Positions 1,911 to 60,924 of a stretch of 64,000 nt of DNA are shown here, one piece after another. The notes below the pieces were generated by a model. It was not told the DNA's origin. It did no database searches and saw only the letters and a list, made by a program, of their open reading frames with translations. The stretch lies in the NCBI GenBank assembly GCA_000091205.1, contig AP006500.2. One strand, written 5' to 3'. The position numbers were made by a program, and so were the translations under genes. The first letter of the stretch is position 1. Every line of letters starts with the position of its first letter. Source of the DNA: Cyanidioschyzon merolae (taxonomy: Eukaryota).

Positions 1911-3501
1911 GGTGTCAGCATAAAATGGAGCAGGTCCACGAATACTGGCTAGCTCTCTAAAAAATGGGCCTCTTCTCCTGGCCGTCAGCGCCAGCCACTG
2001 TGGGATTTTTCCGTGACTGCTTCTTGTTTTATGTTTCTTGTATCTGAAATGAAAAACCGCGGTCTGTCCTTTTACTCTAGATCGGTTGTCACTAGTCGAT
2101 GGATATTGAGGAACACGTCCAAGCGCCGATGTGGCCGATTCAAGCTGTTATCGACGAATATCATAGACACTCGATCGTTGTGAGCTACGCTTCACTCGCC
2201 ATTTTCATGTTATTTATACAGAGCCCCAGTGCGTCCTTCGCGGCGGTGGCGCTTAACTCTTTTCAGATGTTCCTATACGCGCACCAAACATCCGCGGGCT
2301 TCTCCTCCTTCTTCTTCGAGCACCGCCACGTGACACGGGAACGCTTGCTTCGTCCCTAACCACACGAACTTGACGGGTAGCGTGGGGTTCCTTCGATGTC
2401 TCACTCCGTTTCCGCGCCTCAGTGCTGTACCCTAGGATGACGGGCGTCGTCGTCGGCAATCTCCTCGGCGAGTGTGCTGTTCGCAGGACACGAAAGCGTA
2501 GGCTGCCCCATTCGGCTGCGGATTTGTGGAACGCGATATTGACCATGACGAAACAGTGTCTGGAAGGAAACCCGGGCCTGACGAAGCACTCGAGAGATCC
2601 AGTTCCATCTACGCTCCGTTCGTGCAGCGGATTTGTGGAACGCGATACTGACCATGACGAAACAGTGTCTGGAAGGAAACCCGGGCCTGACGAAGCACTC
2701 GAGAGATCCAGTTCCATCTACGCTCCGTTCGTGCAGCGGATTTGTGGAACGCGATATTGACCATGACGAAACAGTGCCTGGAAGGAAACCCAGGCCTGAC
2801 GAAGCACTCGAGAGATCCAGTTCCATCTACGCTCCGTTCGTGCAGCGCGGTGAAGCAGCCTCCGATAGAAGCGATCGCTGCGATAACGCAAGTCCGAGTC
2901 CAAGACACTTCTCCATGCAAACCGAAGACACGCGGGCCTCTACGAGCATACCCCGTGCAGCGTCGCACGCTGTTGTTGGCTCGCGCTCCACCGATAGCGT
3001 CAAAACGGGTAGGAATTGTTGTTCGGTCGATTTCAGCTAATGGAGGCGACAAGGTCAGTGAGCTTACGTTATGAGCTTGTACATACGACGTTCAGGGACA
3101 GCATCGACTTTTTCGTTTCCACGTCAATCCACCAGCGCCAACGCCTGCACCAACGAGTTGCTTTGAACGAGAACGATCGAAAACTTGAGCAGTGTCTGTG
3201 CTGCGAGCCTGCTATACGTCGGGCAAGGACAGGTGCGGCGGCTTGTACGCATGCATCGAATAACGATATCCGTTATTTGAGGAAGCCTTGTCTGAGGGCG
3301 TCGCGAATCGTCTCGACCCCAGTGCCGTCACGAATTCCAGCAACGACGAATTGAACGGGAGACACTGCAACAGAGACCGACCGAGACTCCTACAACTGCG
3401 TATCGGTTCGTATGCTCTTATTGCTGAACTTCAAATGTTGAGGCCGTGCTTCTAAAAAATCTTCGGAAAACTATCGAATGGTTAGAATGGAGCGAGCGGC
3501 T
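1911..3501. repeat. left arm of large inverted repeat (1591 bp)
   Basis: The reverse complement of 4442-5814 matches base for base, with about 1 mismatch per 200 bp in the stretches I compared. The outer end is ggtgtcagcataaaatggagc. The inner end is ggagcgagcggct. Confidence 0.9.
2518..2846. repeat. 109-bp tandem repeat, 3 copies, inside the left IR arm
   Basis: gatttgtggaacgcgata recurs at 2521, 2630 and 2739, giving a 109-bp period. Units differ by 1-3 nt. This explains the three near-identical overlapping ORFs in the track. Confidence 0.9.
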
Positions 3502-3529
3502 CAATGCTCTCTATTACGCCGAAACGACT

Positions 3530-4201
3530 CTAAAAGACGCACGTATTAGCTGCTGCTGTACCATCGGCCGAGGCAAAGCGCGTCCGAAGTTGTTCCCATA
3601 CTGCCGCTCTTTCCGATGAGACATCACCAACCGGACTGAGAAACATACTCAGTACCACCTCCTCGCCTGCCTTCTCGTGCCCGAGCAAGCGAATGATGTA
3701 TGTCGGTGTCGAGGGATCACCCCGACTGACGCCCTGTTCAAAACGCGCCGCACGAACGCCGCTGAGAAGAATGTGTAGATCCATGTTGATCGATAAGTCG
3801 ACGACGTTGGCGTAGAGGCCTCGGCGTGGCACCTCAGCGTAGAAGAGTTTCTCGAGGGTTGCGGTCGACTCAAGCACAACCGCCGCGTTCGTCGCGATAA
3901 AACGCAATTCGCCTAACTCCTTGCATGCTTCCAAAAACTCCACAAGACGAGGAAACTTTCCTGCAGCTTGGTCAACCGTCAACCGTCCGGGAGCTTGCGT
4001 TGCCATGCGCACAACGCTTCCCGTGCGCGCACGCCTTCGAACAGGGCGTGCGGCAGCCAGCGACGCGCTGTTCCAGGGCAGCAAACGCGTCCCATGAACG
4101 AGATCACGGTACACTGCCGCACAATGTAGTGCAGTATGTGTGCACCCACTAGATCTTGTGCGTTCTTCAAGCCTCAGCCTATTCAAGCCAGTGACAAACA
4201 T
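3530..4201 (-). CDS. small protein with ChuX/HutX-like (haem-utilisation/haem-binding fold) C-terminal domain and a transit-peptide-like N-terminus
   Basis: ATG at 4199-4201. The 223-aa ORF is the only ORF in the unique spacer of the IR. The pattern ELGELRFIATNAAVVLESTATLE...GLYANVV...DLHILLSGV...TPTYIIRLLG...VVLSMFLSP resembles my recollection of ChuX/HutX. The function call is weak. Confidence 0.45.
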   Translation of the reverse strand: MFVTGLNRLRLEERTRSSGCTHTALHCAAVYRDLVHGTRLLPWNSASLAAARPVRRRARTGSVVRMATQAPGRLTVDQAAGKFPRLVEFLEACKELGELRFIATNAAVVLESTATLEKLFYAEVPRRGLYANVVDLSINMDLHILLSGVRAARFEQGVSRGDPSTPTYIIRLLGHEKAGEEVVLSMFLSPVGDVSSERAAVWEQLRTRFASADGTAAANTCVF

Positions 4202-4441
4202 CGCTGGAGTTGATCGCAGTCCAAATGGAGATCAGCGAGTGCTGCAATCGATGTCAGCGCCGCTCGCGTTCCATCTTCGCAGGAGCCGTAGAGGAAATCG
4301 TACATGAATGTATATCTAGGGACAGTAATGGACATGAGCGCCTTCGCCCGATGCCGAGTCTCCAGCAGGGCCGGAGGGTCCGTGACGCACCGTCACTGTG
4401 ACGCGCACGTGGAACGCTAGACACACTCAGATGGAAGATGC

Positions 4442-5814
4442 AGCCGCTCGCTCCATTCTAACCATTCGATAGTTTTCCGAAGATTTTTTAGAAGCACGGC
4501 CTCAACATTTGAAGTTCAGCAATAAGAGCATACGAACCGATACGCAGTTGTAGGAGTCTCGGTCGGTCTCTGTTGCAGTGTCTCCCGTTCAATTCGTCGT
4601 TGCTGGAATTCGTGACGGCACTGGGGTCGAGACGATTCGCGACGCCCTCAGACAAGGCTTCCTCAAATAACGGATATCGTTATTCGATGCATGCGTACAA
4701 GCCGCCGCACCTGTCCTTGCCCGACGTATAGCAGGCTCGCAGCACAGACACTGCTCAAGTTTTCGATCGTTCTCGTTCAAAGCAACTCGTTGGTGCAGGC
4801 GTTGGCGCTGGTGGATTGACGTGGAAACGAAAAAGTCGATGCTGTCCCTGAACGTCATATGTACAAGCTCATGACGTAAGCTCACTGACCTAGTCGCCTC
4901 CATTAGCTGAAATCGACCGAACAACAATTCCTACGCGTTTTGACGCTATCGGTGGAGCGCGAGCCAGCAACAGCGTGCGACGCTGCACGGGGTATGCTCG
5001 TAGAGGCCCGCGTGTCTTCGGTTTGCATGGAGAAGTGTCTTGGACTCGGACTTGCGTTCTCGCAGCGATCGCTTCTATCGGAGGCTGCTTCACCGCGCTG
5101 CACGAACGGAGCGTAGATGGAACTGGATCTCTCGAGTGCTTCGTCAGGCCCGGGTTTCCTTCCAGACACTGTTTCGTCATGGTCAATATCGCGTTCTACA
5201 AATCCGCAGCCGAATGGGGCAGCCTACGCTTTCGTGTCCTGCGAACAGCACACTCGCCGAGGAGATTGCCGACGACGACGCCCGTCATCCTAGGGTACAG
5301 CACTGAGGCGCGGAAACGGAGTGAGACATCGAAGGAACCCCACGCTACCCGTCAAGGGCGTGTGGTTAGGGACGAAGCAAGCGTTCCCGTGTCACGTGGC
5401 GGTGCTCGAAGAAGAAGGAGGAGAAGCCCGCGGATGTTTGGTGCGCGTATAGGAACATCTGAAAAGAGTTAAGCGCCACCGCCGCGAAGGACGCACTGCG
5501 GCTCTGTATAAATAACATGAAAATGGCGAGTGAAGCGTAGCTCACAACGATCGAGTGTCTATGATATTCGTCGATAACAGCTTGAATCGGCCACATCGGC
5601 GCTTGGACGTGTTCCCCAATATCCATCGACTAGTGACAACCGATCTAGAGTAAAAGGACAGACCGCGGTTTTTCATTTCAGATACAAGAAACATAAAACA
5701 AGAAGCAGTCACGGAAAAATCCCACAGTGGCTGGCGCTGACGGCCAGGAGAAGAGGCCCATTTTTTAGAGAGCTAGCCAGTATTCGTGGACCTGCTCCAT
5801 TTTATGCTGACACC
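4442..5814. repeat. right arm of large inverted repeat (1373 bp; single copy of the 109-bp unit at about 5097-5208)
   Basis: It is the reverse complement of 1911-3501 minus two 109-bp units (218 bp, which is exactly the length difference). ORFs 5366-5626(-) and 4589-4927(-) mirror 2099-2359(+) and 3016-3354(+), each with 2 aa changes. Confidence 0.9.
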
Positions 5815-6049
5815 GGTGTAACACGAGACACTTGCCACTGTCGCGCTTCTATCCGCGTGCATGTACGTATGCTCGAGTTACCCGCCCCGTTGCCGGCGAC
5901 GTAATGAACAAGCTCACTTGGCGCACACCTAAAGACTCCCAAGCATCACGCTTTGACAGGCTCTATTATACCACACTCTTTGAAAGAAACAGCGCCACAC
6001 ACAGTATCGACGAGATATCTCGTTGCTATGACCTGCGCGGCGAATACAG

Positions 6050-8740
6050 TCACAAATGCGGATGCTCTGATGCAGCATTGCGACGCTTGTCTCGCGATTG
6101 TTGAGTCGCTTCGGGAACTTGGGTCAACGATACGGGCGCCTCGTACATACTCTGCGCAGCGCCGGTTGGCAGGAGTCCTGCTGACTCCGCTGCGAGCGCA
6201 TCGAGCGACTCTGCCTCTGACGAAGGCTGAAGCGCACCTGACGCTGCTGCGATGAGTTCCTGAAACAACGCATCCAGGCTGTTTTCAGCCAGCATGCGGG
6301 GTCGTAGTTGTTCGACGCGCTCCGAGGACACCAGTCCGGCAGTGAGCAGTGCATCGAAGACAGACATATGTAACGTCGAGTCCACTGGGGCATCGGGCGA
6401 CGTCTGCTCAGGCGAAGAGATCGCAATAAGTGGCTCGCTGGCGTCCTCGTGCTTGTCAGCGGGTGCTGCAGCCACTGGAGCTGTCGTCGTTGCTGATGCC
6501 GTTGTTTCACCGAAAAACAGAGCTAACGAGTCCGCTGCGGGTACCGGATTCGTTGCCACTGGCGCTTGCAGCTCGGTGCTTGTGTCTTGGTGCTTTTCAG
6601 CAGCCTGGTGCTTCGATGCCTCGGTTGACGGTACCAAAGGCAGCGACACATGTAAAAGGTTCGCATTTTCCGGCAGACATGAGGAAAACGTCGCTCCCGC
6701 GGAAGTGCACGCACTCCATGCGCAGAGCAGACAGCCGTTCGTCCATGCACTGGGCACAGCGAATGCTACCGCATCTCGGTTTCTCAGTGCATCTATGGCG
6801 TCTGTGCGAACGTCATCCACTATTGAGGAGGTTCTCAGTGGGGCACACTGCGGATGTGCTGCGGCGGCTTCCGCAGTACCTGCTCGAGGCGTTGGGTCGG
6901 TGTCAATGAGGGTCGTACTCTGCGCTACGCGCGCTTCCATGGTATCCATTACGCTCTCTGGACGAACCGAAATCTTATCGAGCGATTGTGCGCACTCCAC
7001 CGCGTAGCTCAGAACATCTACATCGTCATCTTCGAGGCCAGCGACCAGCAGGCTATTGAGTGCGCGCCAAGCTCGATCCGTGGATGTCCTTCGCGCCGCG
7101 AGCGTTCGAGCAAGACGTAGCAACTCGAGGCGCACTGGTGCAGCCAAGAGCAATCGATGCTGCTGCTGTTGCTGCTGCTGCTGCATCCATCTTCGCAGCA
7201 CCTCGTCGGCGACAGTCCCAATATGATCGATCATCGTGCCTACGATCCAGAGAAAACGACTTTGTGTCGGCGAGTCGGACTCGATCCATGCCGCATTGAG
7301 CACAATCTCTTTTAAGAGATTTTCTGCTTGACTTATGCGTTCCCGAGGCGTCGTCCGTAGCGCTCCCACTGTCATGCGCAGCAGCAGAAGGCCAACAGCA
7401 CCATAGACTGACGGCGATACGACGCTTCGGCTGCGCCAAATGTCGATGAGTTGCGGAATAGCGGCAGCACTGCTTACCGGATGCACTGCTGCCATTAAAG
7501 CCAACGCACGTGCTGCCATAATAGCAAGCTCTTCGCCACGGCACTTCAACAGCGGCACTAGCCGATCCATAATCGTGATGCACAGCGTCTCCTCGAATTC
7601 GACAAGTTTCACCAGGATGCCCAGCTGATGGCGATACACTGCCGGTTCATCAGTGCCGATCGTCGGCACAAACAGGGGCGCGTACCTTGTCAAACACGCT
7701 GGTTCACGCCACGCGAGCACGTGCAGCATTCGCAGGGCCAACACTTTCAGGCCGCTCTCGTGATCCAGCGCGTAGCGAAGCAGCGTTCGCACCACCGTCT
7801 CCGTGACGTCGTTATCGCTGGAGCGCCTCAAATGGTACAGCGTTAGCGCACCGCTCACAGCGACCGCTGCCGACAGGGACTCTACAGCTTTCCTGGCGAG
7901 TCGGTCGACGGCTTGCACAAAGCGGGTAAGCTCTTCACCGCAGAGTGTCTCTGTCATTCGCTCGGGCCGCGTTGTAGTACGCAGTAGGACGTAGCGCAGC
8001 AGCTGATGCAGTGCTATCGGGAGCAGGTTCCCCGGAATCGTCTGGTACTCTTCATCTAGTCGCTCGACCAGCGACACGGGAATGTTGAGCATTGCATCTC
8101 GATCTAGCATGCCCAGTGCTGCAGCAGTTGCAACCAGTACGGGTGCTTCCCGGTCATTTAACAACAACTGCCACAGAGGTGCCGTCAACGCCGAAGCAAT
8201 CTGCTCAACAGGCAGCTGGTGGAGGCTTTGCGCAGGCTCCGCACCGTCGGGCTCGTTCCACGTTAGCACTGGTGGGATACTCAGGGCTGCGGTGAGTCGC
8301 ACTTGCGGATGACGGTCCCGCACACCGCGGTGAATCGCCAACCACATAACCTGGCGTAGAGCGGGAACACGTAGCGAAGTCAGTAGGCGGAGCGCCTGAC
8401 TCCGCACCCAAGGGTCATTGTGCTGCAGGTCCTTAAACAACGCGTTAACCGCCAAGAGGACCAAATGCGGTTCGTCGTCCGCATGCTGCTGCAGGAATAT
8501 GCACACCAGTCGTTTCAGTTCATAGTCTGCTTGCAGCAGATTGCTCACCACGGCGGGTAGCAACTTGGCTACGGGCTGGCCCTGAACGCTGAGCGCTAGC
8601 ACTCTCTTCAGCGCTTCCCTGCGAACCTGTGCGTTGCCCTGTTCAAGCTGGAGTCGTAAAAGTGCCCAGTCTGTGTTCGCATCGTCCAAGTACGAGGCGT
8701 CTGTCCAGTTGCCCGCTAACTGAGACGCCAGCGTTGTCAT
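6050..8740 (-). CDS. adaptor-protein complex beta subunit, AP-3 beta-like (adaptin N-terminal HEAT/ARM domain)
   Basis: ELKRLVCIFLQQHADDEPHLVLLAVNALFKDLQHNDPWVRSQALRLLTSLRVPALRQVMWLAIHRGVRDRHPQVRLTAA fits the beta-adaptin N-terminal signature. The first ATG is at 8738-8740 (the track ORF begins at GTG 8782). TGA stop at 6050-6052. The C-terminal third is low complexity. Confidence 0.75.
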   Translation of the reverse strand: MTTLASQLAGNWTDASYLDDANTDWALLRLQLEQGNAQVRREALKRVLALSVQGQPVAKLLPAVVSNLLQADYELKRLVCIFLQQHADDEPHLVLLAVNALFKDLQHNDPWVRSQALRLLTSLRVPALRQVMWLAIHRGVRDRHPQVRLTAALSIPPVLTWNEPDGAEPAQSLHQLPVEQIASALTAPLWQLLLNDREAPVLVATAAALGMLDRDAMLNIPVSLVERLDEEYQTIPGNLLPIALHQLLRYVLLRTTTRPERMTETLCGEELTRFVQAVDRLARKAVESLSAAVAVSGALTLYHLRRSSDNDVTETVVRTLLRYALDHESGLKVLALRMLHVLAWREPACLTRYAPLFVPTIGTDEPAVYRHQLGILVKLVEFEETLCITIMDRLVPLLKCRGEELAIMAARALALMAAVHPVSSAAAIPQLIDIWRSRSVVSPSVYGAVGLLLLRMTVGALRTTPRERISQAENLLKEIVLNAAWIESDSPTQSRFLWIVGTMIDHIGTVADEVLRRWMQQQQQQQQHRLLLAAPVRLELLRLARTLAARRTSTDRAWRALNSLLVAGLEDDDVDVLSYAVECAQSLDKISVRPESVMDTMEARVAQSTTLIDTDPTPRAGTAEAAAAHPQCAPLRTSSIVDDVRTDAIDALRNRDAVAFAVPSAWTNGCLLCAWSACTSAGATFSSCLPENANLLHVSLPLVPSTEASKHQAAEKHQDTSTELQAPVATNPVPAADSLALFFGETTASATTTAPVAAAPADKHEDASEPLIAISSPEQTSPDAPVDSTLHMSVFDALLTAGLVSSERVEQLRPRMLAENSLDALFQELIAAASGALQPSSEAESLDALAAESAGLLPTGAAQSMYEAPVSLTQVPEATQQSRDKRRNAASEHPHL

Positions 8741-9350
8741 CGCCGAGGCGGTACAGCCGCGAACTCTCCCCTGGAGCACCACACAGCCGCGTTAGAGGAC
8801 GAGTATTGGCCGTTGCAGTGTACGGCCTGGGCAACAGTGACCTACAGTGCAGAAAGAATCTTGTCCGAAGACGCAGCGAGAAAATCTAGAAACGTACTGG
8901 TCTGAGCTTGCTGAGAAACAAACGCAACTCGAACGAGATGCGTCCAGTAGCACTCGCGCTACCAGTTTTCGGGCAACGGAACGCTGCACCTCCGGAGCCG
9001 CTTCCAGGTTCTACCAGCAACACCAACACCTTGTAAATTTAGACCTGTGCTCGTCCGCAGCGTCAAGGCACGAATCCCCGACTGCCAGGCTTGGGTCCCC
9101 GGTGTTACGGCACGGAGGCGAGGTCGTCCACCGGTGTCTCCTGGGAAATCCTGTCTCACGCTAGCCCATACGCCCTTGTCAGTGTAAAAACGGGAACAAG
9201 TCGACGAATACCGGCGCAGACACTCATGGATGTGTCGCTTATCGATGTCATCAACACGTGTGTGCGCAAGCTTTTTCTGTGAATGCCTCCTTTTCCTCCC
9301 ATACATCTCCGGCTTTCAACACGGTAGTATGCTTTCTTTCCCATGTTTAC

Positions 9351-10475
9351 GGTTGTCAGCAGTCGAGGAATGTTGATGGCATCTTTAAACTACCGATTTC
9401 TCCGTTTCCGGTGAAGGTCTGCGTATTTCATGTACAGGCCAAAATTGCGATCTATATTTCGCTTACCACATTCATCTTCGTTGTACACAGCCTCGGTGGG
9501 CTTTTCTGGCGATGACTATTTGCTATACACAGGCACGCTGATCTATCCATCCAGCTGAGGCGCTCCTTGGAACGCTGCCCCCATAGCGTATGAAGCCAAG
9601 CTTCATCGCCCGGTACACACTCTTGATGGGTTCAGAGAACTATTCTGGACGCCCTATTCGTTTTCCATGCCAGACGCGGCACCTCACCACCAGAGGCTTC
9701 CTCATGGGATTATCCTGTCGGCGAGTGCGCTGCCAGCTGCACATGCCAGAACAGGCTGTTCCGTTCGATCGAGCACTTGTGGAACGAGATTTTCTTCTTG
9801 ACAAATCAAGTACTGGAAGAAAAATTCCAGCAGGGCATCGTTTTGATCGATATCACTCCGTCTACGCCCTCTGGGTGCAAAGCGGTGACGCACGCGCCAC
9901 TGTTCATCGATCGCTGCGATGCCTCAAGACCGAGTCCAGGACCCGTGTTCATGCAAAAAAGAGAAACGAGCATCTCTCGGAGCGTACCCAGCGCCAGGTG
10001 ACATGCTCCTGTCGATTGCTGTTTCGTCGAGAGCTAAAAAGAGAAGTGGATTCCCCTCTCAACGGAATCGATTATTTGACGTGACAAGTTCAGAGAGCTC
10101 TTGGTATGAGCTCGTGAACCAGCCGTCATGGTTGCTTTGGGACAGAAAAATTTCAAGATTTGAAGAATACGTGATCTAGGCATTCAACTGGTTCATAAAG
10201 ACGAAGCGTGCAGTCTTCCATGTATGCATTGGATGGATGATATCGGTTATTGTCACGAACCCGTGTTCCAGGGCGTCGTGAATCCTCTTGATCCCGGTGA
10301 CGTAACGAATTCCAGTGGGAAACCGCCAGAGAAGCCATTCCTGGAAACACAACCAGCAATCCTTGATCCCCTAGTGATGCACTGCGAATATCGCTGCTGA
10401 TCATCTAAAAACATACTTCGGAAGACTAGTTCGAAATGCAAGAACAAAGCGAGCAGTTCAGAGCTCCATTTTATG
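9351..10475 (+). repeat. third, diverged copy of the IR-arm sequence family (core homology 9700-10475)
   Basis: Collinear blocks are shared with 2440-3501. Examples are tcggcgagtg(t/c)gctg, ttgtggaacg, gatcgctgcgat..ccgagtcca and agggcgtcg(c/t)gaatc.tct.ga.ccc.gtg..cgt.acgaattccag at 10270-10320 vs 3294-3343. The end block is tctaaaaa.at..ttcggaa.act...gagcgagc.g. Identity is roughly 70-75% by eye. The 5' limit is uncertain. Confidence 0.55.
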
Positions 10476-10639
10476 TTCATACGGGTGCTGCGATCTGCCG
10501 TCGCTGCTCCTTGTTTGCTGCGAGTCATATCCTACCTGCATTTCTGTTTGCGTTCATCAACGTACTTCCAGCGTCCAAGTGACGGGGTTGCGTCTGCCTC
10601 GTGATAGGGCTAGAGTGCTTGCCTCTGGCAAGCCCGTTC

Positions 10640-11449
10640 ATGGGATCGGCAGCACCTTTGTCGCGGATCGCGAGACTCCTCGAACGGGACGCAGCTACGC
10701 TGGCGTGGAGCGAACTTCACGAAGCGCACCAGGTACTGCTGCGCTGCACGCTGCGCTCGACTGACGGACAGGCACTCTGGTTGCTGTCGCAGTTCTATGA
10801 ACGCGGGTTTCACGTGCAGTGGCAGCTGCGCCGCAAGACTCGGCCTCGTGGAGGTGGTCTCATCGCTCGCTGGTGGTCCTCAGCGCGATATCGGTGGCAC
10901 TCGCTGTTCACGGAGCCGGTGCTCGCGCTTGATCGCTTCCTCGCCGACAGATACCGCTATGCAGCGGCTCGTGCTGACGTGCTTCCGGCCCAACTAGCCC
11001 TGGTAGAGGAGCTTCGGCGCAACGGTGACGATGCGGATCACGAGCTCGCCTATGCGCTCCTGAAGCGCATGGTACGGTTGATGGCAGGACAGCGCTCAGC
11101 GGGCATGAACGCTGCTGTGCTCCCGAAAATAGGTCTTGTCTGTCTAACCCGTGGTGCGTTCAATGACGCGCTAACGTTCCTGGAGCAATGGTATGAAAAT
11201 GCAGCTCCTCGTGAGGGACACGCAGACACCATAGCGGTGCTGGGCGTGCTCTACGCTCGCCGGTGGCTGCACGCAACTGAAGCAGCGCGTACGGATCACG
11301 ACCTAATGCAAGCGCAACGATATCTGACAGAGGCTGCGGAGAACGGAAGCGTACTGGCGCAGTCATGGATTGTCGCACTGGAAGAGCACTGGAAACATCC
11401 CAGGTCTGGAGAGGAGCGAACGGCCTCCATCCAAGCGGTACACATCTGA
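10640..11449 (+). CDS. hypothetical protein, possibly Sel1/TPR-like helical repeats
   Basis: 269-aa ORF from the first ATG at 10640 (track start is GTG 10601). Repeated A..W...AA..G motifs (YLTEAAENGSVLAQSWIV). No confident family assignment. Confidence 0.45.
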   Translation: MGSAAPLSRIARLLERDAATLAWSELHEAHQVLLRCTLRSTDGQALWLLSQFYERGFHVQWQLRRKTRPRGGGLIARWWSSARYRWHSLFTEPVLALDRFLADRYRYAAARADVLPAQLALVEELRRNGDDADHELAYALLKRMVRLMAGQRSAGMNAAVLPKIGLVCLTRGAFNDALTFLEQWYENAAPREGHADTIAVLGVLYARRWLHATEAARTDHDLMQAQRYLTEAAENGSVLAQSWIVALEEHWKHPRSGEERTASIQAVHI

Positions 11450-19168: not shown

Positions 19169-19450
19169 TGCATGCACGAGCTGAGCGTTTCTTGATCTTG
19201 GCAATCTCCTCTCCTATATATACACACTTTCATCCAGTGTGCATGCACGAGCTGAGCGTTTCTTGATCTTGGCAATCTGCTCTCCTATATATACACACTT
19301 TCATCCAGTGTGCATGCACGAGCTGAGCGATTCTTGATCTTGGCAATCTGCTCTCCTATATATACACACTTTCATCCAGTGTGCATGCACGAGCTGAGCG
19401 TTTCTTGATCTTGGCAATCTTCTCTCCTATATATACACACTTTCATCCAG
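19169..19450. repeat. 71-bp tandem repeat, about 4 copies, each containing tatatatacacac
   Basis: catgcacgagctgagcg recurs at 19171, 19242, 19313 and 19384. Units differ by 1-2 nt. The array ends 136 bp upstream of ATG 19586. Confidence 0.9.
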
Positions 19451-19585
19451 CATCGACGTGAGTTGTACCAGGGCGCGGCGGGATTCGGCGTTGCCTCGCG
19501 AGCATCGCACTATCCGAAGATCGGCACTCGAGCTGCGCGTCCGAGGTGCTCCACAGCAGCTTCTAAGGTTCTGGCACAGCCTACG

Positions 19586-20728
19586 ATGCGTATGGAACAG
19601 CCAGCAGCGTTTCTGAGTGGCAAACTACAACCCTTGTGCCTAGATCGCAAGTTCCAGTTGCGCGTGAGCGGGTCACGGCAACAGTTTCGGGGCCGCCGCC
19701 GACCCATTCTCGTCGCCCGGGTCGGGATCGGCGTCATCGGTGCAGGCCGCATAGGACAGGTACATGCAGCAACGATAGCTCGTCTGATGAATGCAGAGCT
19801 ACGAGGTATTGCTGATCCAATTGAAGCAGCTGGGCGTAAGGTGGCCGAGAGTTTCCAGACAGCGTACTTTCCAGACTATCGTACGCTGCTAGAGGACCCC
19901 GATGTACAGGGTGTCGTCATCGGCTCGCCAACGCCGTTTCACGCGGAACAAATGATAGCTGCAGCCGAAGCCGGCAAGCATATATTTTGTGAAAAGCCTA
20001 TCAGCAACGATCTCGCGACGATCGACCGTTGTTTAGAGGTGGTACGCACCAGCGGCGTCAAACTCCTGGTGGGGTTCCAGCGGCGCTTCGATAGTAACTT
20101 TAGCTACGTACGTGACCAGATTGAGCGTGGCACCATTGGGCAAGTGCGTATGTTTCACATCCATTCAAGAGATCCGGCGCCACCTCCGGCGGAATACTTG
20201 GCGAAAAGCGGAGGTATTTTCCTCGACATGTGTTCCCATGATTACGATATGGCGCGTTTTGTGACGGGCCAGGAAATCGAGGAGGTTTACGTGGTTGGCA
20301 AGGCCTTCGATCCCGAGGCACAGGCCGCAAATGATCTCGACACCCACATAACGGTACTGCGGATGTCGGGCGGGGTCATGGGCACCATCGACAACTCTCG
20401 TCGTTGCGCATACGGCTACGACCAGCGTATCGAGGTGTTTGGCTCCGACGGTTCGTTAATCGGTCAAAACAAGAGCAAGCACTCCGTAGTAGCCGCCGGT
20501 CAAGATGGGTATCATCATGGACGACCTTTTGATTTCTTTATGGATCGCTATCTGGAGGCGTACGGGAACATCATGACCGCATTTGTGCAGATGATCGAGC
20601 GCGGCACAGACCCCCCTGTCTCGGGGTTAGACGGTCGCGCGCCGGTGCTCGCTGCGCTGGCCGCAGCCCGAAGTGTCAAGGAGAATCGACCAGTGAAACT
20701 CAGCGAAGTCGATATACGCATGCGCTAG
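19586..20728 (+). CDS. Gfo/Idh/MocA-family NAD(P)-dependent oxidoreductase (myo-inositol 2-dehydrogenase-like)
   Basis: Rossmann motif IGVIGAGRIGQVHA, conserved FCEKPIS, then LLVGFQRRFD and GGIFLDMCSHDYDM. The first ATG is at 19586 (track start is TTG 19463). N-terminal extension of about 45 aa. Confidence 0.85.
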   Translation: MRMEQPAAFLSGKLQPLCLDRKFQLRVSGSRQQFRGRRRPILVARVGIGVIGAGRIGQVHAATIARLMNAELRGIADPIEAAGRKVAESFQTAYFPDYRTLLEDPDVQGVVIGSPTPFHAEQMIAAAEAGKHIFCEKPISNDLATIDRCLEVVRTSGVKLLVGFQRRFDSNFSYVRDQIERGTIGQVRMFHIHSRDPAPPPAEYLAKSGGIFLDMCSHDYDMARFVTGQEIEEVYVVGKAFDPEAQAANDLDTHITVLRMSGGVMGTIDNSRRCAYGYDQRIEVFGSDGSLIGQNKSKHSVVAAGQDGYHHGRPFDFFMDRYLEAYGNIMTAFVQMIERGTDPPVSGLDGRAPVLAALAAARSVKENRPVKLSEVDIRMR

Positions 20729-23700
20729 GAATGAATGCAATCGCCCCTAAACCAGTATCAGGTTCAGAACTGGAACGCCGAACTGTTCGCTCTGTTGCTT
20801 CCTTGCAGTGCATTCCGAAATTTTGCTTGGACGTACAGACTCGACATTCGATGGGCAGCAATGGGAGCCTTTGGGCGCACACACAGTTTTAGGATTCTTC
20901 GTCGTCATTTCCGAGTGGCACCTTCGACGCTTTGCTGCTGCCATTGGTTGCACGTGACCTTTACCAAGGTGACTCGCCACGTTATTCACCAAGAATTCGT
21001 CATATAACCCGTATCACTATCCAGTTCAATCGCACAAATTTCGACACTTCTCCTTTCGAAAAGTTGGGTATGCTCCAATCAAATACTCCTGAACCTTTAG
21101 GTGTCTATCTTACAGAGCAGCTCGTGGGCGCTGCCATTCGCACCGCTGGATTGATGGGGAAAAACACCCGAACGTCTTCCTTTTGACGCCTTGTGCACAT
21201 GTACATGCTGAAAGTTCACCGAAATTCTCATATTAGATACTTGATTCGTTTCGAAGGCCAAATTATTTTTTGCGGCAAGTAACGAAGCTGCATTCGGCAG
21301 CAACATGATATCTCTCACGGGATATGCTCCCAGAGGCTCCCGTCTATTTTGTTTGCAGGTAAAAGGGTCTTGGATTCAGAACTGATTCATCGCTGTGAAT
21401 GCTTCCAGCGGAGCATGCTTTATCGCTTGGCATGGAGCAGACGTCGAGGGATCGAAATTACGCAAGCGAACCTTCACCCTGGACTCCCTTCCGTTTCCTG
21501 GTTCATCGTGGGCAACATCACATTCCGGGGATTCTATCGAATGAAATGTTGTCCGCTTGTGTTTGCAGCGAACAGAGTACTCGCTGACGGGGTCGCCCCG
21601 AAGGAGCCCATAGCTGTAGGTTACGGTAGCGAGCGCGCAATCGGGTAAGAGAGTCTGTGAAAGCCCTCTGCATCCGTCCAGGGCATCTACGGGGCGATGA
21701 GGCAACCATTACGCGCCACAGGACGGCCCTAGGAGGAGGTCATTTGGTTTGCATATGGGAAGATTCGACCTCAACCATACGTGACCGCTGCAGAGGGCGC
21801 ACAGCAGCTGGATAAAATGAAACTGAAAGTGGCACGCGAAGGGTACACTCCAACTACCGCCTGTGCATGAAATGCGGCACTAGGAGCCGGAAGCTGCGAA
21901 ACTGAGACTTGAAGGCGCCAATCAGCCTCCTTTGACTGTTGAGAACAGGGCTGGGGCGAACGGAGAGACCGGCGTATTGAAAGCGGGAGATACGAGAGAG
22001 TAAATGAAGCAGTCGCTAAACAAACGCGCAAAGCTTGTTGTTGATGTCAGTGGAACGAGAACCGAACTTGAGCGTGGATGCCCCTGTTAGATGACCTCTC
22101 CTGTTTAGTTATACCGCGATGCCAAACAAAGACACGCCGAAACTTTGGTGACGAGAAATCCCGTAAGAAGACTGCGAATGTTTTGATGGAGTATTGGTAC
22201 GATGGCACATACTAATGTCTCTCGGGGACGCCATTGGATCCAAACTTTGGGGATCCTAGGCTCATCTAAGACGCCACTATCAGAGTAGGTCGTGCGGAAC
22301 GTGGTCGCGGTGCAAAGTACGAGCGCCATACGGCATGTACTCTGGGGAGCGTAGAGCGACGCGGTTCGAGCTCATGGACACGAGGGGTCTTCGAGATGAT
22401 TGTGCCATCATGTCATCTAACAAGATCCACAGTATATGCAGATTTGCGGATCATTACGCTTTCTGCTGGAATCCTGCGGCATTTCAGACCGCATACGGGT
22501 ATTCATATCCGTGAACAAGCTGCAAAGTCGATGAAAGTGGTTGCCGCAATGGGACTCCCAGCTCATAGACGCTCCTCGATCCGAGAGAAATGCCCATATA
22601 TCTCGTAGTTCGATACCCGATTGGCTGTTGGCGCAAATACGAGGTTGCTCACGTACCGTCTAGCGTTCGATCGTGCGTCCTCATGAGGATTTTATGCTGG
22701 GAAAGCCAGCACAAGCACCGCTCAGGCGAACCAGCCTGAGTTGGGCGCTCTATCCTCCGTCATTTTCATTTCTATTCAATTTGAGTGGATTCGCGGAGGC
22801 CTGCCAACAGACCTCTCAAGCTGCAAGCGGGCACGTTACACGTTGTGCGCCTCCACCACTGAGTCTCTCGGACACAGGCACTGTTGCGTTATTCAGGTAT
22901 GTGGGCATCGATACAAGCTTCGCAATACAGCGGCATGGACGTGCAACTGCGCCAAACGACGGCGCGGTAGCATTCCGCAAGCCCTGTTCAGCAGAGCGAC
23001 CAGCGCTAGGCTGTTCGCGCATGAGACCTGGCGCTTTCCTAAACCCCGAGACCTTCATGAACGTCATCCGTGGACAAGACGAGGTGCGCATCAATCGAAT
23101 AAATGTCGAGCCAGACGTATCCTGCGCCCGCAAAAACTGGATACACGGGCATCAATGCCTGGAAGGCTCCATGTGCGAGACTCCCGCTATTTGACGTCCG
23201 GTATCTCCGCTACCTCCGATTCTACGACGAATGCTGCGCGGTCAGTCTACAGGAAGTTTTTAACTCGGGCCCCGGATCCGATATAGACTGGACGCGAACC
23301 ATGTCAAATGCCTCGCCTGGAAAATGCCTGAGTGTCACCTTCGTCAAGTACCACGGACCGAGCGAGGCGCGTTTGCAAATGGTGAACTGGTTGCGAGTCC
23401 TTAACAGCTCCACCGATGACTAGCTAATCTGTCAACACTGGATACGCCTCAACCGCGCTCTTCGTTCCGAATTCTGATGAGCTTCGGCATACGTCAAGGC
23501 GATCAGGCAAAGCGTCTTCATCGGCTAAGGAACTGTACTCCAGAGCGGGGGCTCGCAATCGCTCGTTGCCCAACAGTCCAGCACGCGAACCTCAGAGGAT
23601 CAGCATTCCATGTAGAATTCAGAATGCTGGAGGCGGCGCGTAGATGAAGACTAGGCTAGATATAAGCACTCACATCCACAAACAGATGGAAACGTTTGCG

Positions 23701-23760
23701 CTGTGCAGAATACGATAGCATCGAACGCACAGAGAACAGTCGTGCAGTGCTCGTAGACGC

Positions 23761-35400: not shown

Positions 35401-35401
35401 G

Positions 35402-36323: not shown

Positions 36324-36661
36324 AATCGGTCTACGGCGGACGGTGTGAGAAACGCCACCATTGTACACTGGCTTTCCAGCGTTTCTCTTTTGCAAGGCGT
36401 TTGGTGGTGTTTCCAGAGACGAATTGTTTACCAAAAACGTCTTCTATCGATCTTCGAAACCAACGTGCTGCTTCCTCTGTGCGGCACGGGGCGTACGCTA
36501 TGCGCTTTTCTGCTGATTGACAGCGGAAGCGACGAGTCCGGTTACTGCCTTGAAGACTTTGACGCTTTGGAGAGACCATCATATCGATGGTTTCAGTTTT
36601 CTGACCTCCTCCTAACCACCACGCTCGGATCTCTGTTGCAACGGCACGCGCAGCAGCTCTC

Positions 36662-44747: not shown

Positions 44748-46510
44748 ACACCTACATCAGAGGAACGAAGGACTCTTGAAAAACGCAATCCATACATCGC
44801 TTTCGCTACGCATGTGTTCGTGGGGTTACCATACAAGCTCGGTGCGCTTGAGGCAGCGTCGTCGCTTGGCTATGGTCAGGTGTTTCCGTCTATCCAGCAT
44901 CGCTCATCTTCTAAAGCCGGTACAGCGACGCAGGAACGTTCTCTGTTTCATCGCTCGGCACGTATCGTGAACCGGTACAGAGGGCTCCTTTCGATCTCCT
45001 GCTTCATCATCTGCGCCAGGTGCTGTACCAGTCGATCACGGACCGCGGTTTGGCGATCGACTTGACGAGTACGCTGGGTGCTGCAGGTGCAAGCGCACGC
45101 TATGCCGATCGCTCGAAACGACTTGTGGAGTGCGGTACTGTCCAGTATGACTCGAGTACCATACGAAAAACCCAGACCGGTGCCGCAGTCGAGATATCAG
45201 CTCGATCCGTTGGGGCTCTGGTCGGGCGGAGGAGTCACGCGCGCTCCACTGGAAGCGAACGTTGCGAGACCGCTCGCGTCCAAGAAGTTTTTTTTTTGCC
45301 TAGGACCAGAAGAGACCGGGGCCTCGCTGGGACCACAATTGCTCGTGAACGGTTCATGTTGCCGTGGAGTGTCGTTTCGTTGATGTCCATAAAAAGAAGG
45401 CGATCTTTCGTTCTAGCGAAATCGATCATTTGACGTGACAAGCTCCGTGACCATTCGGTATACGCTGGTGAGCAAGTCGTCGAAAGCACGACGTCGTCGA
45501 CGTGCTATGCTCGTCTTTCGAGTAGTGCGAACTGGTGTGCCCGCGAGTTGCCTTGAATCAGGAAAAACGAAAACGTGAAAAATGTCTGATTTCAGCATGC
45601 CATACGGACGGAGATGAGAGGAACAGGGGATTCTGCGCCTGCACTGGATCCCGGTATCGATTACCTTGCGAATGCTTCTTCCGTTGCGTTCCGGATCATG
45701 TTGATTCTGTTGACGACGACGGGAACTCTAGCGCCAAACAGTCTACGAAGCCACATCGAAAAGAAGACCGTGCATCCTGAAGCGACATGCGAGTCCGCAA
45801 GGCCTTGCTCTTCTGCTGCGCTTCGAAATTCGGCACAATGCATATACGAGGGAACACCTCGGAGAACGTCGACGAACAGGTCCAGATCTAGCTGTCCAGT
45901 GTTCCAGTTCAAGCTGAAACTGGTGTCGTGATGCTGGGGCATGGACGGCGAGTCAACCGCTGTCGCACGGCTCGCGGAGGACGCACCCAGGCAACCGCTA
46001 TTGTCGTCCTCGTAACGATGCTGGCACGCTGGAACGCATCGGATGCGTATCGGTAAGCACGAGCACCGGTCGCTACCCGGAATTCAGAACAGGAGTGGCG
46101 TATTCACGAAGCATACGTCGTTTCACAGCATTGATCGTGTACCGCGCACACACATACACAAGCGATCCACGAGTCGGGAGCAGAACGTTACGCCCTGATA
46201 CCCTGAGCTCCTGGTCATTTGCGCGCTTGCGGTAGCGCTCGACGTGACACACGAGGCCGGCGGAAACCTCACGGGAGTGCAGAGCGAAACGAGATGCCAA
46301 AGCGCGCTTACGAAGCATCCCGCACGTCTTGAACCGAGTATCGACACGCGTGACCCAGCGTCGTGCGTATTCTCCCGCTCGGTGCAGCATGACAGCTGCT
46401 CCCAGCGATACCGAAAAACGTCATGCACTCGGCGATGCCTGGTTAGGAGCGACATCCTCGAGAAAGAAAGGCGCTGAACGCAGTCGTAGCATGCCGCCTC
46501 TGGTGTTGGT

Positions 46511-55657: not shown

Positions 55658-57554
55658 CAAGGTCCGGACTGACGTATAACCGCTGTACACGAACACCAAT
55701 ACCGAGCAGTTAGGCCCGTACCAAGCCGCGTGGTATGCCGAGTCACGAGCACAGCTGCTATTGCGCTCGTCTACGACGACATCGTCTACATCCTGTGGAT
55801 GCTACTCAGAACTGGTGCATCGTTCGTGCGTTCGTTCTATGTCGATTTTCGACTAGATGGGAATGGGTTCCCAAACCAAACACGAGGCTACACACGAAAG
55901 TTCGCGTCTCTTCCCAGTGTCATGAGCGTTGGAATCTGCAGCCTGTTTTTGCTTGTGCGACTGCTTCCGTTTCCTGTGTCTCTGATTTCCGCCTTGAACG
56001 ACGCCTGCCTCTTCTGTGCTTCGAGATCGGTGATCAGCAGTCATTGGATATTGATGATGGCGTTCAAATCCCGATATCGGTGCTTTGGATTGTTGCCGAC
56101 GCATTTCATGCACAAGCGGTCGATACGAAATGCGCTTGGCTTGCCACTTTCATCCGCTTGGTAGACCGTCCTGTACGCCAGTTGCAACGGTGACACTTGG
56201 TTGTGTTCTGGGATACCTGTATGCCAACTGCAGCTTCGCTTAGTGAGGTCGCCCTATGGCTTGTGTGAACGTTCGCATCATCGCCGGTCACATGTCCTTG
56301 ACGAGCTCCGAGGGATGCCTCTGACGTTCGCATCAGACTCCGCACTCGGTATCGTGTCCTGGGATCAGCGGCTTCTTCTTCGTGGTCTTGTCTGCGAGTT
56401 TACGTTATAGAGCGCCCGCCGGTGCACGATGTTCCAATCGATCGAGGATTTGTGGAAGGCGCGTTGTTGTCCCTGATGAAACAGGAATCAAAAAGGAAAA
56501 TTCCAGGATGGAGAAGTGGAGAGCGTCTGATCCATCTGCGATTCCTTCAAGCAAGGCGGTGACAGTCGCTCCACTTGTCGAGATCGCTACGATGACTCGA
56601 ATCCGAATCCAACACCATTATCCATGCAAACGGAAGCACCGGGAGTCTCTGGAAGCATATCCAGATAGAGGACTCATGCAGACGCGGAATGCCGTCGCCT
56701 CCATGACCGCAAAGAGAGCAGTTTTTGTGTTTGGAATGGCATGTTTTACTTGACAGTTTCTTTGAACATTGTGTAGGAGCTTGCGCGAGAATCACCAACG
56801 CACGACCTAGCGTACTTCTCCTTGTCGATCCAGAGGCGCTCATCGTTGCACCATTCGCTTACGTTGATGCACAAAAATCTAAAACTTGGAGAATGCCAGA
56901 TTTTGAAGCATGCTGCACGCAAGGCAAGCAGAAGAAAAGAGACCTGCAGGTACGCATTGGATAAGGACATGGGAGAGGCTACGAGCCCGTGTTCAAGAGC
57001 GTCGCGATTGATCCTGACTCCATCGATCGAACATGTTGCAGCGGCAGAGCGTCTAAGGAACGCCCTGGAAAGGACGACTGAGAATTCTTGTAACCCACGT
57101 ATGAATCCAAAATTGATTGTGACTGCAAACAGATGTTCAATGCTCAGTCTCGAAAAAAGTTCGGAAAAAAACCGAAACGCACGAACGAATCGATCAGGTT
57201 CGAATACCACGTTCATTGGACTAGGGCGTCGCAGGGACGTTCGCTCGACAAGCGCCTCACCGCCACTGCAACTGGTAGCTAGCTAGGTATTCCTTCGAGA
57301 TCAAAGGCGGAATCGCTTATCATTGTGTGGACGGAAACAACTGAGCACGCCACGGGAGACTTCTGGTACGGAATCTGGGAACTCGCTCAGCGCTTCGTTT
57401 CGGGGAAGCGAGCAAGGCACGACCCCAGCCTCCTGCTCGCTGCAGCGAAGTCGTGTGCCCAGGATCGTATCACGCTACGACTCGCTCTGTAAATTTCCTG
57501 CATCGAAACAGTGCGTCGTTTCAAGCGGTTCACAGGACGCTGTCAGTCACCAGA

Positions 57555-59495: not shown

Positions 59496-59909
59496 CTACG
59501 TCCATATCGAAAGAGGGACTGGACTAGGTTCACGTGGCTGACTCTGGCGTGCACGCTCGAGTTTGGACCTATTGACATCGTTGTGAACATCAGCATGTTT
59601 GCGACGCTTTTGTAACCGTGTCGTTTTCCCCACTCTTATATCCGACTGTGAAAACATTGGTCTGTCTTTTGACGCCAGATGTGTTGCCGTCAGTCGAAGG
59701 ACGTTGATGGTCGCGTGCAAGTCCCGAATGCACCGCCATTGCCTCTTGTCGACGCTTTTTATGAACAGGCGCATGAGGAGATCTTCGCTTTGCTTGACGG
59801 TTTCATTCTGTTTGCAGACAGCCTCGGTGCACGCTTCGCAGCAGTGACACTTTGCTGCGGTCCGGTATTCGCAGGCGTCCACCTGACCTGGTCTCTCGCC
59901 GGCCGTCAT
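59496..59909 (-). CDS. hypothetical small Cys-rich protein
   Basis: The first ATG is at 59907-59909 (MTAGERPGQVDACEYRTAAKCHCCEACTEAVCKQ...). The track ORF starts at GTG 60149. No family recognised. Confidence 0.3.
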   Translation of the reverse strand: MTAGERPGQVDACEYRTAAKCHCCEACTEAVCKQNETVKQSEDLLMRLFIKSVDKRQWRCIRDLHATINVLRLTATHLASKDRPMFSQSDIRVGKTTRLQKRRKHADVHNDVNRSKLERARQSQPREPSPVPLSIWT

Positions 59910-60924
59910 AGTTGGTGCGTAAAAGCTTGCCTCGTCGCTCGTTACGTGCCTGTGACGGGTACAGAGGGTGCCCCTTCGACGCTGTCGTCCGTTTTCCGCG
60001 CCCGTGGTGTACGCTTCGATCACCGGCTTCTTCTGGGCGATGCTCTCCGCGCGAGTACTCCGTCTGCCGCACACACGCGCACGCGTTTCCGTTCGTGAAA
60101 GGATTTGTGGAACGGAACCCGTCCGTGATGAAAGAAGAACTGGAAGCACAATCCATTCTGGAGAGCAGTCCCAAAAGTTCGAACTGTCTTCGCCACCTTG
60201 AAGCGATTGCCGTTATGACTCAAGCCCGAATGACTGCCAGACACGCTCCCATGCACACCCAAGAGCTGGGCACGTCTCGGAGCATATCCCGTGATACGTT
60301 GCATGCTGGAGTCGAATGGCGTCTCGTCAAAGCGTAGATCCCGATGGAGACGAGTTTTACCACCAGAAGCGATTGTTTCGCAAGTTCATTGAACTTTCCG
60401 CACGAACCTGTGAACAAGTCGTCGAGGGACAATGGCTCGTGCTTTCCATCGTGCATTGCGCGGCGAGTACTGATGCAACCACAAGTTTATTTCGAAAAAG
60501 AACGATAAAAAACTTGGAGAATGCCTGAAACAAGCGTGCTACCCGAATGGAAAGGACAAGTCTTAAACCCATTCCGAATGTATTCGATATTCATAGATCG
60601 CATACCTTACGAAAGCTTCATTGAGAGCGTCGTAAATCATCCTGATTTCAATCGCATCACGATTTCCAGCTGCCGAGCATCTAAGCAGCCACTCCGGAAA
60701 CAACTCTCAAGGAATCCGTAGAATTTGATTTTCAAATGCCGATTTTCGGCACTTTACAATTAGGAAAATACTTCGAAAACAGATATCGCAAGCCAGGACC
60801 ATACCGAACACTTCACTACCCGGTTTCTTTCTCTGACACGGTTGTAGCCGCAATACTGAGGTTTCGAATATCGAGCGCATGCCTTACTAACGTCCTCGCA
60901 GTTGCCTCCGTGCATCGATACCCA

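What the first reader, a model, noticed from the sequence alone, without database searches (positions are those of the whole stretch)
9351..10475. Diverged third copy of the arm ends with the inverted outer-terminus motif and abuts a gene start
The third copy follows the arm sequence to the arm's inner end (aaagcgagcagtt, about 10445-10457). After 5 nt it continues with gctccattttatg (10463-10475). That is the exact reverse complement of the arm's outer terminus cataaaatggagc (1919-1931), and 17 of 20 positions match when extended. I estimate a 13-mer match of this kind is very unlikely by chance in 64 kb. This suggests the ancestral unit (about 1.1-1.4 kb) was bounded by short terminal inverted repeats, like a non-autonomous DNA transposon. 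The big palindrome would then derive from two such units that lost their inner termini. In two cases the inner end lies 165-241 bp upstream of a start codon (ATG 10640 and ATG 4201), so the unit may supply promoter activity.
Basis: partly seen in the sequence, partly recalled or inferred. Interest (0 to 1): 0.5.

Follow-up and report, generated by a model that had tools for sequence, protein, structure and literature searches.

The report
Dead Tc1/IS630-type transposon copy

Summary
GCTCCATTTTATG (10463-10475) is the exact reverse complement of 1919-1931, and the third copy is real (nhmmer E 1e-75). Its true limits are 9171-10487, not 9351-10475.

The unit is not non-coding. A majority consensus of 9 copies encodes an HTH + DDE_3 transposase (Pfam 41.5 bits; NCBIfam IS630 E 6e-16; 31% identity to an intact DD34E transposase, E 1.5e-21).

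The consensus has terminal inverted repeats (TIRs) matching at 26 of 31 positions. TA flanks 9 of 19 ends.

All copies are pseudogenes, 63-74% identical to the consensus. They cover about 15% of the window.

Two syntenic relatives lack the family. Their AP3b/g269 spacer is 162-282 nt, against 1899 nt here, so the third copy is an insertion.

The last ~45 codons derive from a Fanzor/TnpB gene. The intact relative carries transposase plus a 636-aa TNB-domain protein, so this family is probably a deletion derivative of such a composite.

On the palindrome, the right arm keeps a decayed inner terminus in the spacer. The left arm lacks both termini, so it is a segmental inverted duplicate.

The promoter idea has no support: inner ends face 3 gene starts and 4 gene 3' ends.

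The parts
9171..10487 (-). Third copy: a complete but decayed family-A element of 1317 nt. The transposase pseudogene lies on the minus strand.
   Evidence: nhmmer E 1e-75 against the arm. TIR-defined ends. The consensus protein maps colinearly in frames -2/-1/-2/-3. There are at least 5 in-frame stops, and the longest open stretch is 83 aa. An independent intact transposase, P0006, hits 10127-9891 at E 0.007.
10459..10487 (-).
9171..9200 (+). Right TIR of the third copy (the 'outer' end): CGCCCTTGTCAGTGTAAAAACGGGAACAAG. It is preceded by TA at 9169-9170.
9333..9506 (-). Fanzor/TnpB-derived tail of the ORF in the third copy (..YMKYADLHRKRRNR*FKDAINIPRLLTT).
   Evidence: tblastn of the consensus protein and translation. 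The consensus tail hits Pfam PF07282 at 22.5-25.1 bits. hhalign against the Fanzor profile gives probability 91.7%, E 8e-7.
4413..5818 (+). Right-arm element: a full family-A copy with the transposase remnant on the plus strand. The palindrome arm (4442-5814) lies inside it. TA follows at 5819-5820.
1911..3501 (-). Left arm: a 99%-identical inverted duplicate of 4442-5814. It lacks both element termini and carries 3 copies of a 109-bp tandem repeat at 2515-2847.
   Evidence: Both relatives lack it: the ChuX-to-g683 spacer is 2532 nt here, which is 1591 + 941, against 914 and 955 nt in the relatives.
20750..22121 (+). Copy C21 (1372 nt). TA at 20748-20749. Its left end lies 21 nt after the stop codon of the GFO/IDH/MocA gene.
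44796..45925 (-). Copy C45, truncated at the transposase 3' (outer) end near the stop codon of the condensin Cnd1 gene.
55840..57228 (-). Copy C56 (1389 nt). TA at 55838-55839.
59499..60844 (-). Copy C60 (1346 nt). TA on both sides (59497-59498 and 60845-60846).

Best explanation
Positions 9171-10487 are a fixed, long-dead insertion of a ~1.38-kb cut-and-paste DNA transposon of the IS630-Tc1-mariner superfamily. I call the family 'family A'.

The ORF encodes an N-terminal helix-turn-helix and a DDE_3 catalytic domain. An intact relative of this transposase has DD34E spacing.

Inferred mechanism, from what is established for Tc1/mariner elements: the transposase bound the TIRs, excised the element, and inserted it at TA dinucleotides in intergenic DNA. 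One old burst left many copies, which then decayed neutrally. Copies are 63-74% identical to the consensus, pairwise identities form a star-like pattern at 47-57%, and every copy has stops and frameshifts.

It survives at the inner end of the third copy and at the outer ends of the palindrome arms.

The ORF's last ~45 codons (CxxC...NRDLNAAINIL) come from the 3' end of a Fanzor/TnpB gene. Inferred: family A descends from a transposase + Fanzor composite by an internal deletion that kept the right end.

The 99%-identical palindrome arose later. A transposase-independent inverted duplication copied most of the right-arm element to a site 28 nt downstream of the ChuX-like gene.

Today the copies are most likely inert spacer DNA. 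The third copy splits a formerly ~160-280-nt divergent promoter region between AP3-beta and the g269 gene.
For: Shown by tool results:
- Full-length, colinear copies exist. nhmmer E-values run from 1e-51 to 1e-90. Further copies occur in metagenome contigs.
- The consensus ORF hits Pfam DDE_3 at 41.5 bits, above the 28.6 cut-off, E 1.5e-10, together with weaker HTH_33 and HTH_Tnp_Tc3_2 matches. It hits NCBIfam 'IS630 family transposase' at E 6.2e-16.
- It hits the real 307-aa transposase P0006 at E 1.5e-21 against 5.8 billion proteins. The alignment starts MYSLD.R..AIR and includes DETAF and DN.AFHK. P0006 has 34 residues between its second D and its E.
- Consensus left and right TIRs match at 26 of 31 positions. 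Local score is 20, against 6.8 +/- 1.4 in shuffles; 0 of 5000 shuffles reach it.
- TA flanks 9 of 19 scorable ends, p 8e-8. Copy C60 has TA on both sides.
- tblastx shows no dominant reading frame in individual copies. The third copy has at least 5 stops and at least 3 frameshifts.
- The syntenic 22-kb regions of Cyanidiococcus yangmingshanensis and a second relative keep the gene order. They have no family-A DNA hit (nhmmer, E up to 10) and no protein hit. Their AP3b/g269 spacer is 162-282 nt, against 1899 nt here.
- Fanzor tail: PF07282 at 25.1 bits; hhalign probability 91.7%. P0006 is followed 93 nt downstream, on the same strand, by a 636-aa protein with a TNB domain.

Inferred rather than shown: the transposition mechanism, the deletion origin, and present-day inertness.
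Against: - The third catalytic residue reads K, not E, in the consensus, and a frameshift sits next to it. DD34E is therefore shown only in the relative.
- TA is common at the right end (6 of 8 ends) but rarer at the left (3 of 11). Four left ends read GA, which a simple TA duplication does not predict.
- The TNB-tail Pfam score is just under the gathering threshold.
- No DNA was available for the P0006 contigs, so its TIRs could not be compared with family A.
- No empty site or presence/absence polymorphism was seen. All metagenome contigs, at ~99% identity, carry the copies.
- Only 22 kb of each relative's genome was searched.
Confidence: 0.9

Rival explanations
1. One reading: a non-coding, non-autonomous (MITE-like) TIR element whose inner end supplies promoter activity to the adjacent gene.
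For: TIRs and multiple copies are real. In three cases (armR, third, C56) the inner end lies about 150-230 nt upstream of a gene start. If the family is a deletion derivative of a transposase + Fanzor composite, it is 'derived', though still transposase-bearing.
Against: The consensus encodes a full-length transposase. At 1.3-1.4 kb the element is transposase-sized. Four other inner ends abut gene 3' ends. The relatives have only a 162-282-nt spacer between the same two genes. Conservation is lowest at the element ends, 0.46-0.50, which is not expected of a selected promoter.
Confidence: 0.07
2. A conserved functional intergenic module, such as a lncRNA gene or a regulatory cassette, kept at full length by selection rather than a decaying transposon.
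For: All copies are close to full length with few indels (gap fraction 0-7%) despite ~45% pairwise divergence. All are intergenic.
Against: It is absent from the syntenic regions of two relatives. The consensus is protein-coding. There are no Rfam or tRNA hits. Divergence is uniform along the element, with a star-like pattern. Orientation relative to neighbouring genes is random.
Confidence: 0.02
3. The 13-mer match is coincidence, and the 'third copy' is merely a diverged segmental duplicate of an upstream region.
For: Three of the 13 matching bases are not family consensus. The neighbouring genes are unrelated to each other.
Against: About 0.002 chance matches are expected for one 13-mer in 128 kb. 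The motif sits at the homologous TIR position in most copies. The flanks of the copies are unrelated to each other. The consensus TIR test gives 0 of 5000 shuffles.
Confidence: 0.01

Closest known systems
Tc1-like (DD34E) elements of the IS630-Tc1-mariner superfamily
   Same: A single ORF with paired HTH and DDE_3 domains. A ~30-bp TIR at each end. TA at the insertion flanks. Size about 1.3-1.4 kb. Cut-and-paste biology is inferred from these features.
   Different: All copies here are dead. The ORF carries a C-terminal piece of a Fanzor/TnpB gene. The TIR begins CACC..GTGTCAG rather than the classic CAGT. The host is a cyanidiophyte-like red alga, and my two literature searches turned up no description of such a family there.
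Mariner/Tc1-Fanzor1 composite elements (for example PUl-1 and PGv-1; Bao & Jurka 2013, PMC3627910)
   Same: A transposase of this superfamily travels with a TnpB-like (Fanzor) gene inside TA-flanked TIRs. The nearest intact relative, P0006, has exactly this layout.
   Different: Family A keeps only about the last 45 codons of the Fanzor gene, fused in frame to the transposase. No intact composite was found in this organism's data.
Stowaway-type MITEs (Tc1/mariner-derived non-autonomous elements)
   Same: TIRs and TA flanks. Many dispersed intergenic copies.
   Different: MITEs are under about 0.8 kb and have no coding remnant. This unit is 1.3-1.4 kb and spans a whole transposase frame.
CMe-1A Fanzor1 family of Cyanidioschyzon merolae (PMC3627910)
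   Same: An old, diverged, multi-copy Fanzor-bearing repeat in a cyanidialean genome. It resembles 'family B' in this window (26582-28211 and 34295-36417).

Membership tests
IS630-Tc1-mariner superfamily | Transposase with a DDE_3 / IS630-type catalytic domain and an N-terminal HTH | tested here: met
   Consensus ORF: PF13358 at 41.5 bits, above the 28.6 cut-off, plus weak HTH_33 and HTH_Tnp_Tc3_2 matches. NF033545 (IS630) at E 6e-16, 58.7 bits, which is below the equivalog cut-off of 100. Hit to P0006, which carries HTH_Tnp_Tc3_2 + DDE_3, at E 1.5e-21.
IS630-Tc1-mariner superfamily | Terminal inverted repeats | tested here: met
   Consensus left against right TIR: 26 of 31 positions, with 0 of 5000 shuffles reaching the score. 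Per-copy TIR alignment.
IS630-Tc1-mariner superfamily | TA target-site duplication | tested here: inconclusive
   TA flanks 9 of 19 ends (p 8e-8). Both sides are TA only in C60. Four left ends read GA. No empty site was available.
Tc1-like DD34E family | Catalytic triad D, D, then 34 residues, then E | tested here: inconclusive
   P0006 has D140, D219 and E254, which leaves 34 residues between the second D and the E. The family-A consensus keeps both D motifs but reads K at the E position, next to a frameshift.
Transposase + Fanzor1 composite transposon | An intact Fanzor/TnpB ORF (RuvC + TNB) inside the same TIRs | tested here: not met
   Only the C-terminal CxxC...NRDLNAAINIL piece is present. 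The relative P0006 does have a 636-aa neighbour with a TNB domain.
MITE | Short (under about 800 bp) with no coding remnant | tested here: not met
   Copies are 1317-1406 nt and each spans a colinear transposase remnant.
Helitron / IS200-605-like | No TIRs; a 5'-TC...CTRR-3' terminus or subterminal hairpins; HUH or Rep-helicase genes | tested here: not met
   I considered this because some copies can form a short hairpin at the inner end. The ends are inverted repeats of each other, and the ORF is a DDE transposase.

The most novel reading that the evidence does not exclude
Family A keeps precisely the part of a Fanzor element that, in TnpB/Fanzor systems, encodes the guide (omega) RNA scaffold: the 3' end of the Fanzor gene plus the right transposon end. 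The copies could therefore be, or have been, guide-RNA donors. They would act in trans with the many stand-alone Fanzor1 genes of this organism (over 100 homologues, many intact), each copy targeting the sequence next to its right end.
Probability: 0.04. Interest if true: 0.7.

Novelty: new member of a known kind. Interest (0 to 1): 0.3.

Why it matters
The finding explains about 15% of this window, including both arms of the large palindrome, as relics of one transposon burst. That is useful for annotating a compact, intron-poor algal genome, where such DNA would otherwise be read as long 'intergenic regulatory' sequence.

It also adds one example in which a Tc1/IS630-type transposase and a Fanzor gene travelled together and were later separated by deletion.

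It does not open a new mechanism.

Tried and rejected
- Protein-coding test on individual copies. tblastx gave equal scores in all frames, and Pfam on the longest ORFs of the arms gave nothing. This first suggested non-coding DNA. Only the multi-copy consensus revealed the transposase.
- Rfam and tRNA scans of the window found nothing.
- Helitron-like reading. I considered a 3' hairpin plus CTRR and a 5' TC, then dropped it once the TIR and the DDE ORF were clear.
- Solo-LTR reading (TG...CA ends). I dropped it for the same reason.
- Relation of family A to family B at DNA level. nhmmer with --max and E up to 100 gave no hit.
- A TIR-only HMM scan found no extra solo TIRs and none around family B.
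- phmmer of the A tail and of the stitched B1 protein against PDB sequences gave no meaningful hit. Pfam and NCBIfam on B1 also gave nothing. Only a profile built from B homologues reached Fanzor1 structures.
- The protein of gene 10640-11449 is not on record by exact look-up.
- DNA for the P0006 contigs was unavailable.
- The two genes next to the inner ends (ChuX-like and g269) are unrelated, so this is not a duplicated gene-plus-upstream block.

Full report
**Host and setting.** The window is from an intron-poor eukaryote with 56% GC and genes on both strands. Its AP-3 beta protein (6050-8740, minus strand) is 48% identical to that of the red alga Cyanidiococcus yangmingshanensis. It is 99% identical to a JGI metagenome protein. 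The organism is therefore a cyanidiophyte-like alga known mainly from hot-spring-type metagenomes. That last point is my inference from the sample sources.

**Checking the observation.** The sequence is as described.
- CATAAAATGGAGC occurs exactly at 1919 (+), 5794 (-) and 10463 (-), and nowhere else without mismatch.
- With the palindrome arm as a single nhmmer query, the third copy aligns end to end: model positions 4-1371 against 9178-10456, E 1.4e-75.

**More copies.** The same search found other full-length copies.
- These lie at 22106-20785 (-), 55891-57195 (+) and 59518-60694 (+; 59499-60844 once the ends were defined). A 5'-truncated copy lies at 44816-45866 (+).
- Most of the 21 loci returned are the same loci from a ~99%-identical population.
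- Three loci are new copies (N1-N3). Later look-ups added N4, N5 and one more in L040.
- All copies are about equally distant from each other, at 47-57% pairwise identity. Only the two palindrome arms are nearly identical.

**What the unit is.** Individual copies look non-coding.
- tblastx scores are alike in all six frames.
- Rfam and tRNA scans are empty.
- The longest ORFs have no Pfam hit.

A majority-rule consensus of nine copies tells a different story. Each copy is 63-74% identical to it.
- Pfam: DDE_3 at 41.5 bits, above the 28.6 cut-off, E 1.5e-10. Weaker HTH_33 and HTH_Tnp_Tc3_2 matches accompany it.
- NCBIfam: IS630 family transposase, E 6.2e-16.
- A search of 5.8 billion proteins returned P0006, an intact 307-aa HTH_Tnp_Tc3_2 + DDE_3 transposase, at E 1.5e-21 and 31% identity over 75% of the query.
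- The pairwise alignment shares MYSLD.R..AIR, the DETAF and DN.AFHK catalytic motifs, and the YSP...P(I/V)(E/K) motif.
- P0006 has 34 residues between its second D and its E, so it is DD34E.
- The consensus protein maps colinearly, on the expected strand and with frameshifts, onto every copy.

For the third copy specifically:
- The four mapped segments lie in frames -2, -1, -2 and -3 and contain at least 5 stops. The longest open stretch is 83 aa.
- P0006 alone hits the third copy at E 0.007.

**Termini.** Aligned in transposase orientation, the two ends of the consensus are inverted repeats. They are GCGACACCCGTGTCAGATTCAAAT-GGAACA and GCTACACCGGTGTCAGAATAAAATGGGAACA.
- They match at 26 of 31 positions. 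The local score is 20, against 6.8 +/- 1.4 in 5000 shuffles, none of which reaches it.
- Across the full TIR, the third copy's inner end and the arm's outer end agree at 21 of 29 positions.
- In the register fixed by the TIR alignment, the dinucleotide just outside the element is TA at 9 of 19 scorable ends: 6 of 8 right ends and 3 of 11 left ends. The background frequency of TA is 0.048, giving p 8e-8.
- Copy C60 has TA on both sides. Four left ends read GA, which I cannot explain.

TIR-defined coordinates are as follows.

| Copy | Coordinates |
|---|---|
| third | 9171-10487 |
| armR | 4413-5818 |
| C21 | 20750-22121 |
| C56 | 55840-57228 |
| C60 | 59499-60844 |
| C45 | about 44796-45925 |

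Together with the left arm, this is about 9.5 kb, or roughly 15% of the window.

**Insertion, not ancestral sequence.** Exact-protein look-ups retrieved the syntenic 22 kb from Cyanidiococcus yangmingshanensis (GCA_013995675.1) and from a second relative.
- Gene order is identical: GFO/IDH/MocA, prenyltransferase, FKBP, PHD, g269, AP3-beta, ChuX-like, g683, ABC.
- Neither the family HMM (E up to 10) nor the consensus protein hits these regions.
- The divergent spacer between g269 and AP3-beta is 162-282 nt in the relatives and 1899 nt here. Of that, 1317 nt is the element.
- The convergent spacer between ChuX and g683 is 914 and 955 nt in the relatives. Here it is 2532 nt, which equals the 1591-nt left arm plus 941 nt.
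- No presence/absence polymorphism was seen among the ~99%-identical metagenome contigs. The insertions are old and fixed.

**The palindrome.** Similarity among family members runs past the palindrome's inner boundary on the right-arm side.
- Positions 4413-4441 match the left-TIR consensus at 17 of 29 positions in the expected register. Only 0.02% of all window 29-mers do as well.
- With the third copy as the query, the nhmmer alignment runs to 4432.
- On the outer side, the element extends 4 nt beyond the arm, to 5818, followed by TA.
- The left arm (1911-3501) lacks both termini.
- The right arm is therefore the original insertion. The left arm is a later inverted segmental duplicate of most of it, placed 28 nt after the ChuX stop codon.
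- Because the element had long been dead, a repair or replication error is more likely than transposition. This last step is inference.

**The Fanzor link.** The consensus ORF continues about 50 codons past the point where P0006 ends. This tail reads ..FRVCMKCVDNSRKRRNRDLNAAINILRLL.. .
- It hits Pfam Cas12f1-like_TNB (PF07282) at 25.1 and 22.5 bits, just below the 26.3 cut-off.
- It aligns to the RuvC-III motif of a Fanzor profile, with hhalign probability 91.7% and E 8e-7.
- It is recognisable in individual copies, for example RKRRNR*FKDAINIPRLLTT in the third copy.
- On both contigs that carry P0006, the transposase gene is followed 93 nt later, on the same strand, by a 576-636-aa protein. 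The complete 636-aa one carries a TNB domain.
- That layout is the Mariner + Fanzor1 composite described by Bao & Jurka 2013 (PMC3627910).
- The simplest reading is that family A is an internal-deletion derivative of such a composite. This is inferred, because no DNA was available for those contigs and no intact composite was found in this organism.

**Present-day function.**
- Conservation along the element is flat, at 0.46-0.65 pairwise identity. It is lowest at both ends. That argues against selection on a promoter or on an omega-RNA-like right end.
- The inner (transposase 5') end faces a gene start in 3 cases and a gene 3' end in 4.
- With corrected ends, the distances are 152 nt (10488-10639) and 211 nt (4202-4412).
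- Promoter donation remains untested, because no expression data were available.

**Verdict.** The transposon reading is right in kind but wrong in several details: coding capacity, the history of the palindrome, and the promoter idea. The element is a new member of a well-known superfamily, with a modestly unusual chimeric ancestry.

Noticed in passing
window 26582-28211 (+), and 34295-36417 (palindrome centred near 35366): A second repeat family ('B') is a decayed Fanzor1-like gene. A ~1-kb piece of it is present as an old palindrome with arms ~72% identical. A profile of its homologues hits Spizellomyces punctatus Fanzor1 (8GKH) at E 1.5e-11 and Guillardia theta Fanzor1 at E 0.024. Over 100 homologues, many of them intact at 580-750 aa, occur in JGI metagenomes. 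They stand alone, without a neighbouring transposase, in L040 and L041.
   Followed up: partly
window 3502-4441 (palindrome spacer holding the ChuX/HutX-like gene); loci L001-L010, L026, L029: Different metagenome contigs join the spacer to the outside flanks in both orientations. L002-L004 and L026 match the window. L001, L005 and L006/L029 are flipped. This means either real inversion isomers produced by recombination between the 1.4-kb arms, or short-read assembly ambiguity.
   Followed up: partly
window 2515-2847: A 109-bp tandem repeat lies inside the transposase remnant. It has 3 copies in the left arm, 1 in the right arm, and 1 or 2 in the corresponding arm of metagenome contigs. Its copy number is therefore polymorphic.
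   Followed up: partly
window 19169-19521: A 71-bp tandem repeat, with about 5 units at 98-99% identity, overlaps the start of the GFO/IDH/MocA ORF (19463-20728).
   Followed up: no
window 20729-28804: In Cyanidiococcus, GFO/IDH/MocA and TFIIA-gamma are convergent neighbours 1450 nt apart. Here they are 8.1 kb apart. The interval holds family-A copy C21, a glycerol-3-phosphate dehydrogenase gene (23761-25038) and the Fanzor-like pseudogene.
   Followed up: no
L040 11435-12259: Another family-A copy was found by chance next to a Fanzor-like gene on a 49-kb JGI contig. It matches the consensus transposase over 239 aa in one frame without frameshift (52% identity). It may be a better-preserved copy, but it is cut off by the end of the locus.
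   Followed up: no
left ends of C56, C45, N1 and N2 (for example window 57229-57230 and 45926-45927): Four independent copies have GA rather than TA immediately outside the left TIR. The chance expectation for any given dinucleotide is about 1 in 16. I have no explanation for this.
   Followed up: no
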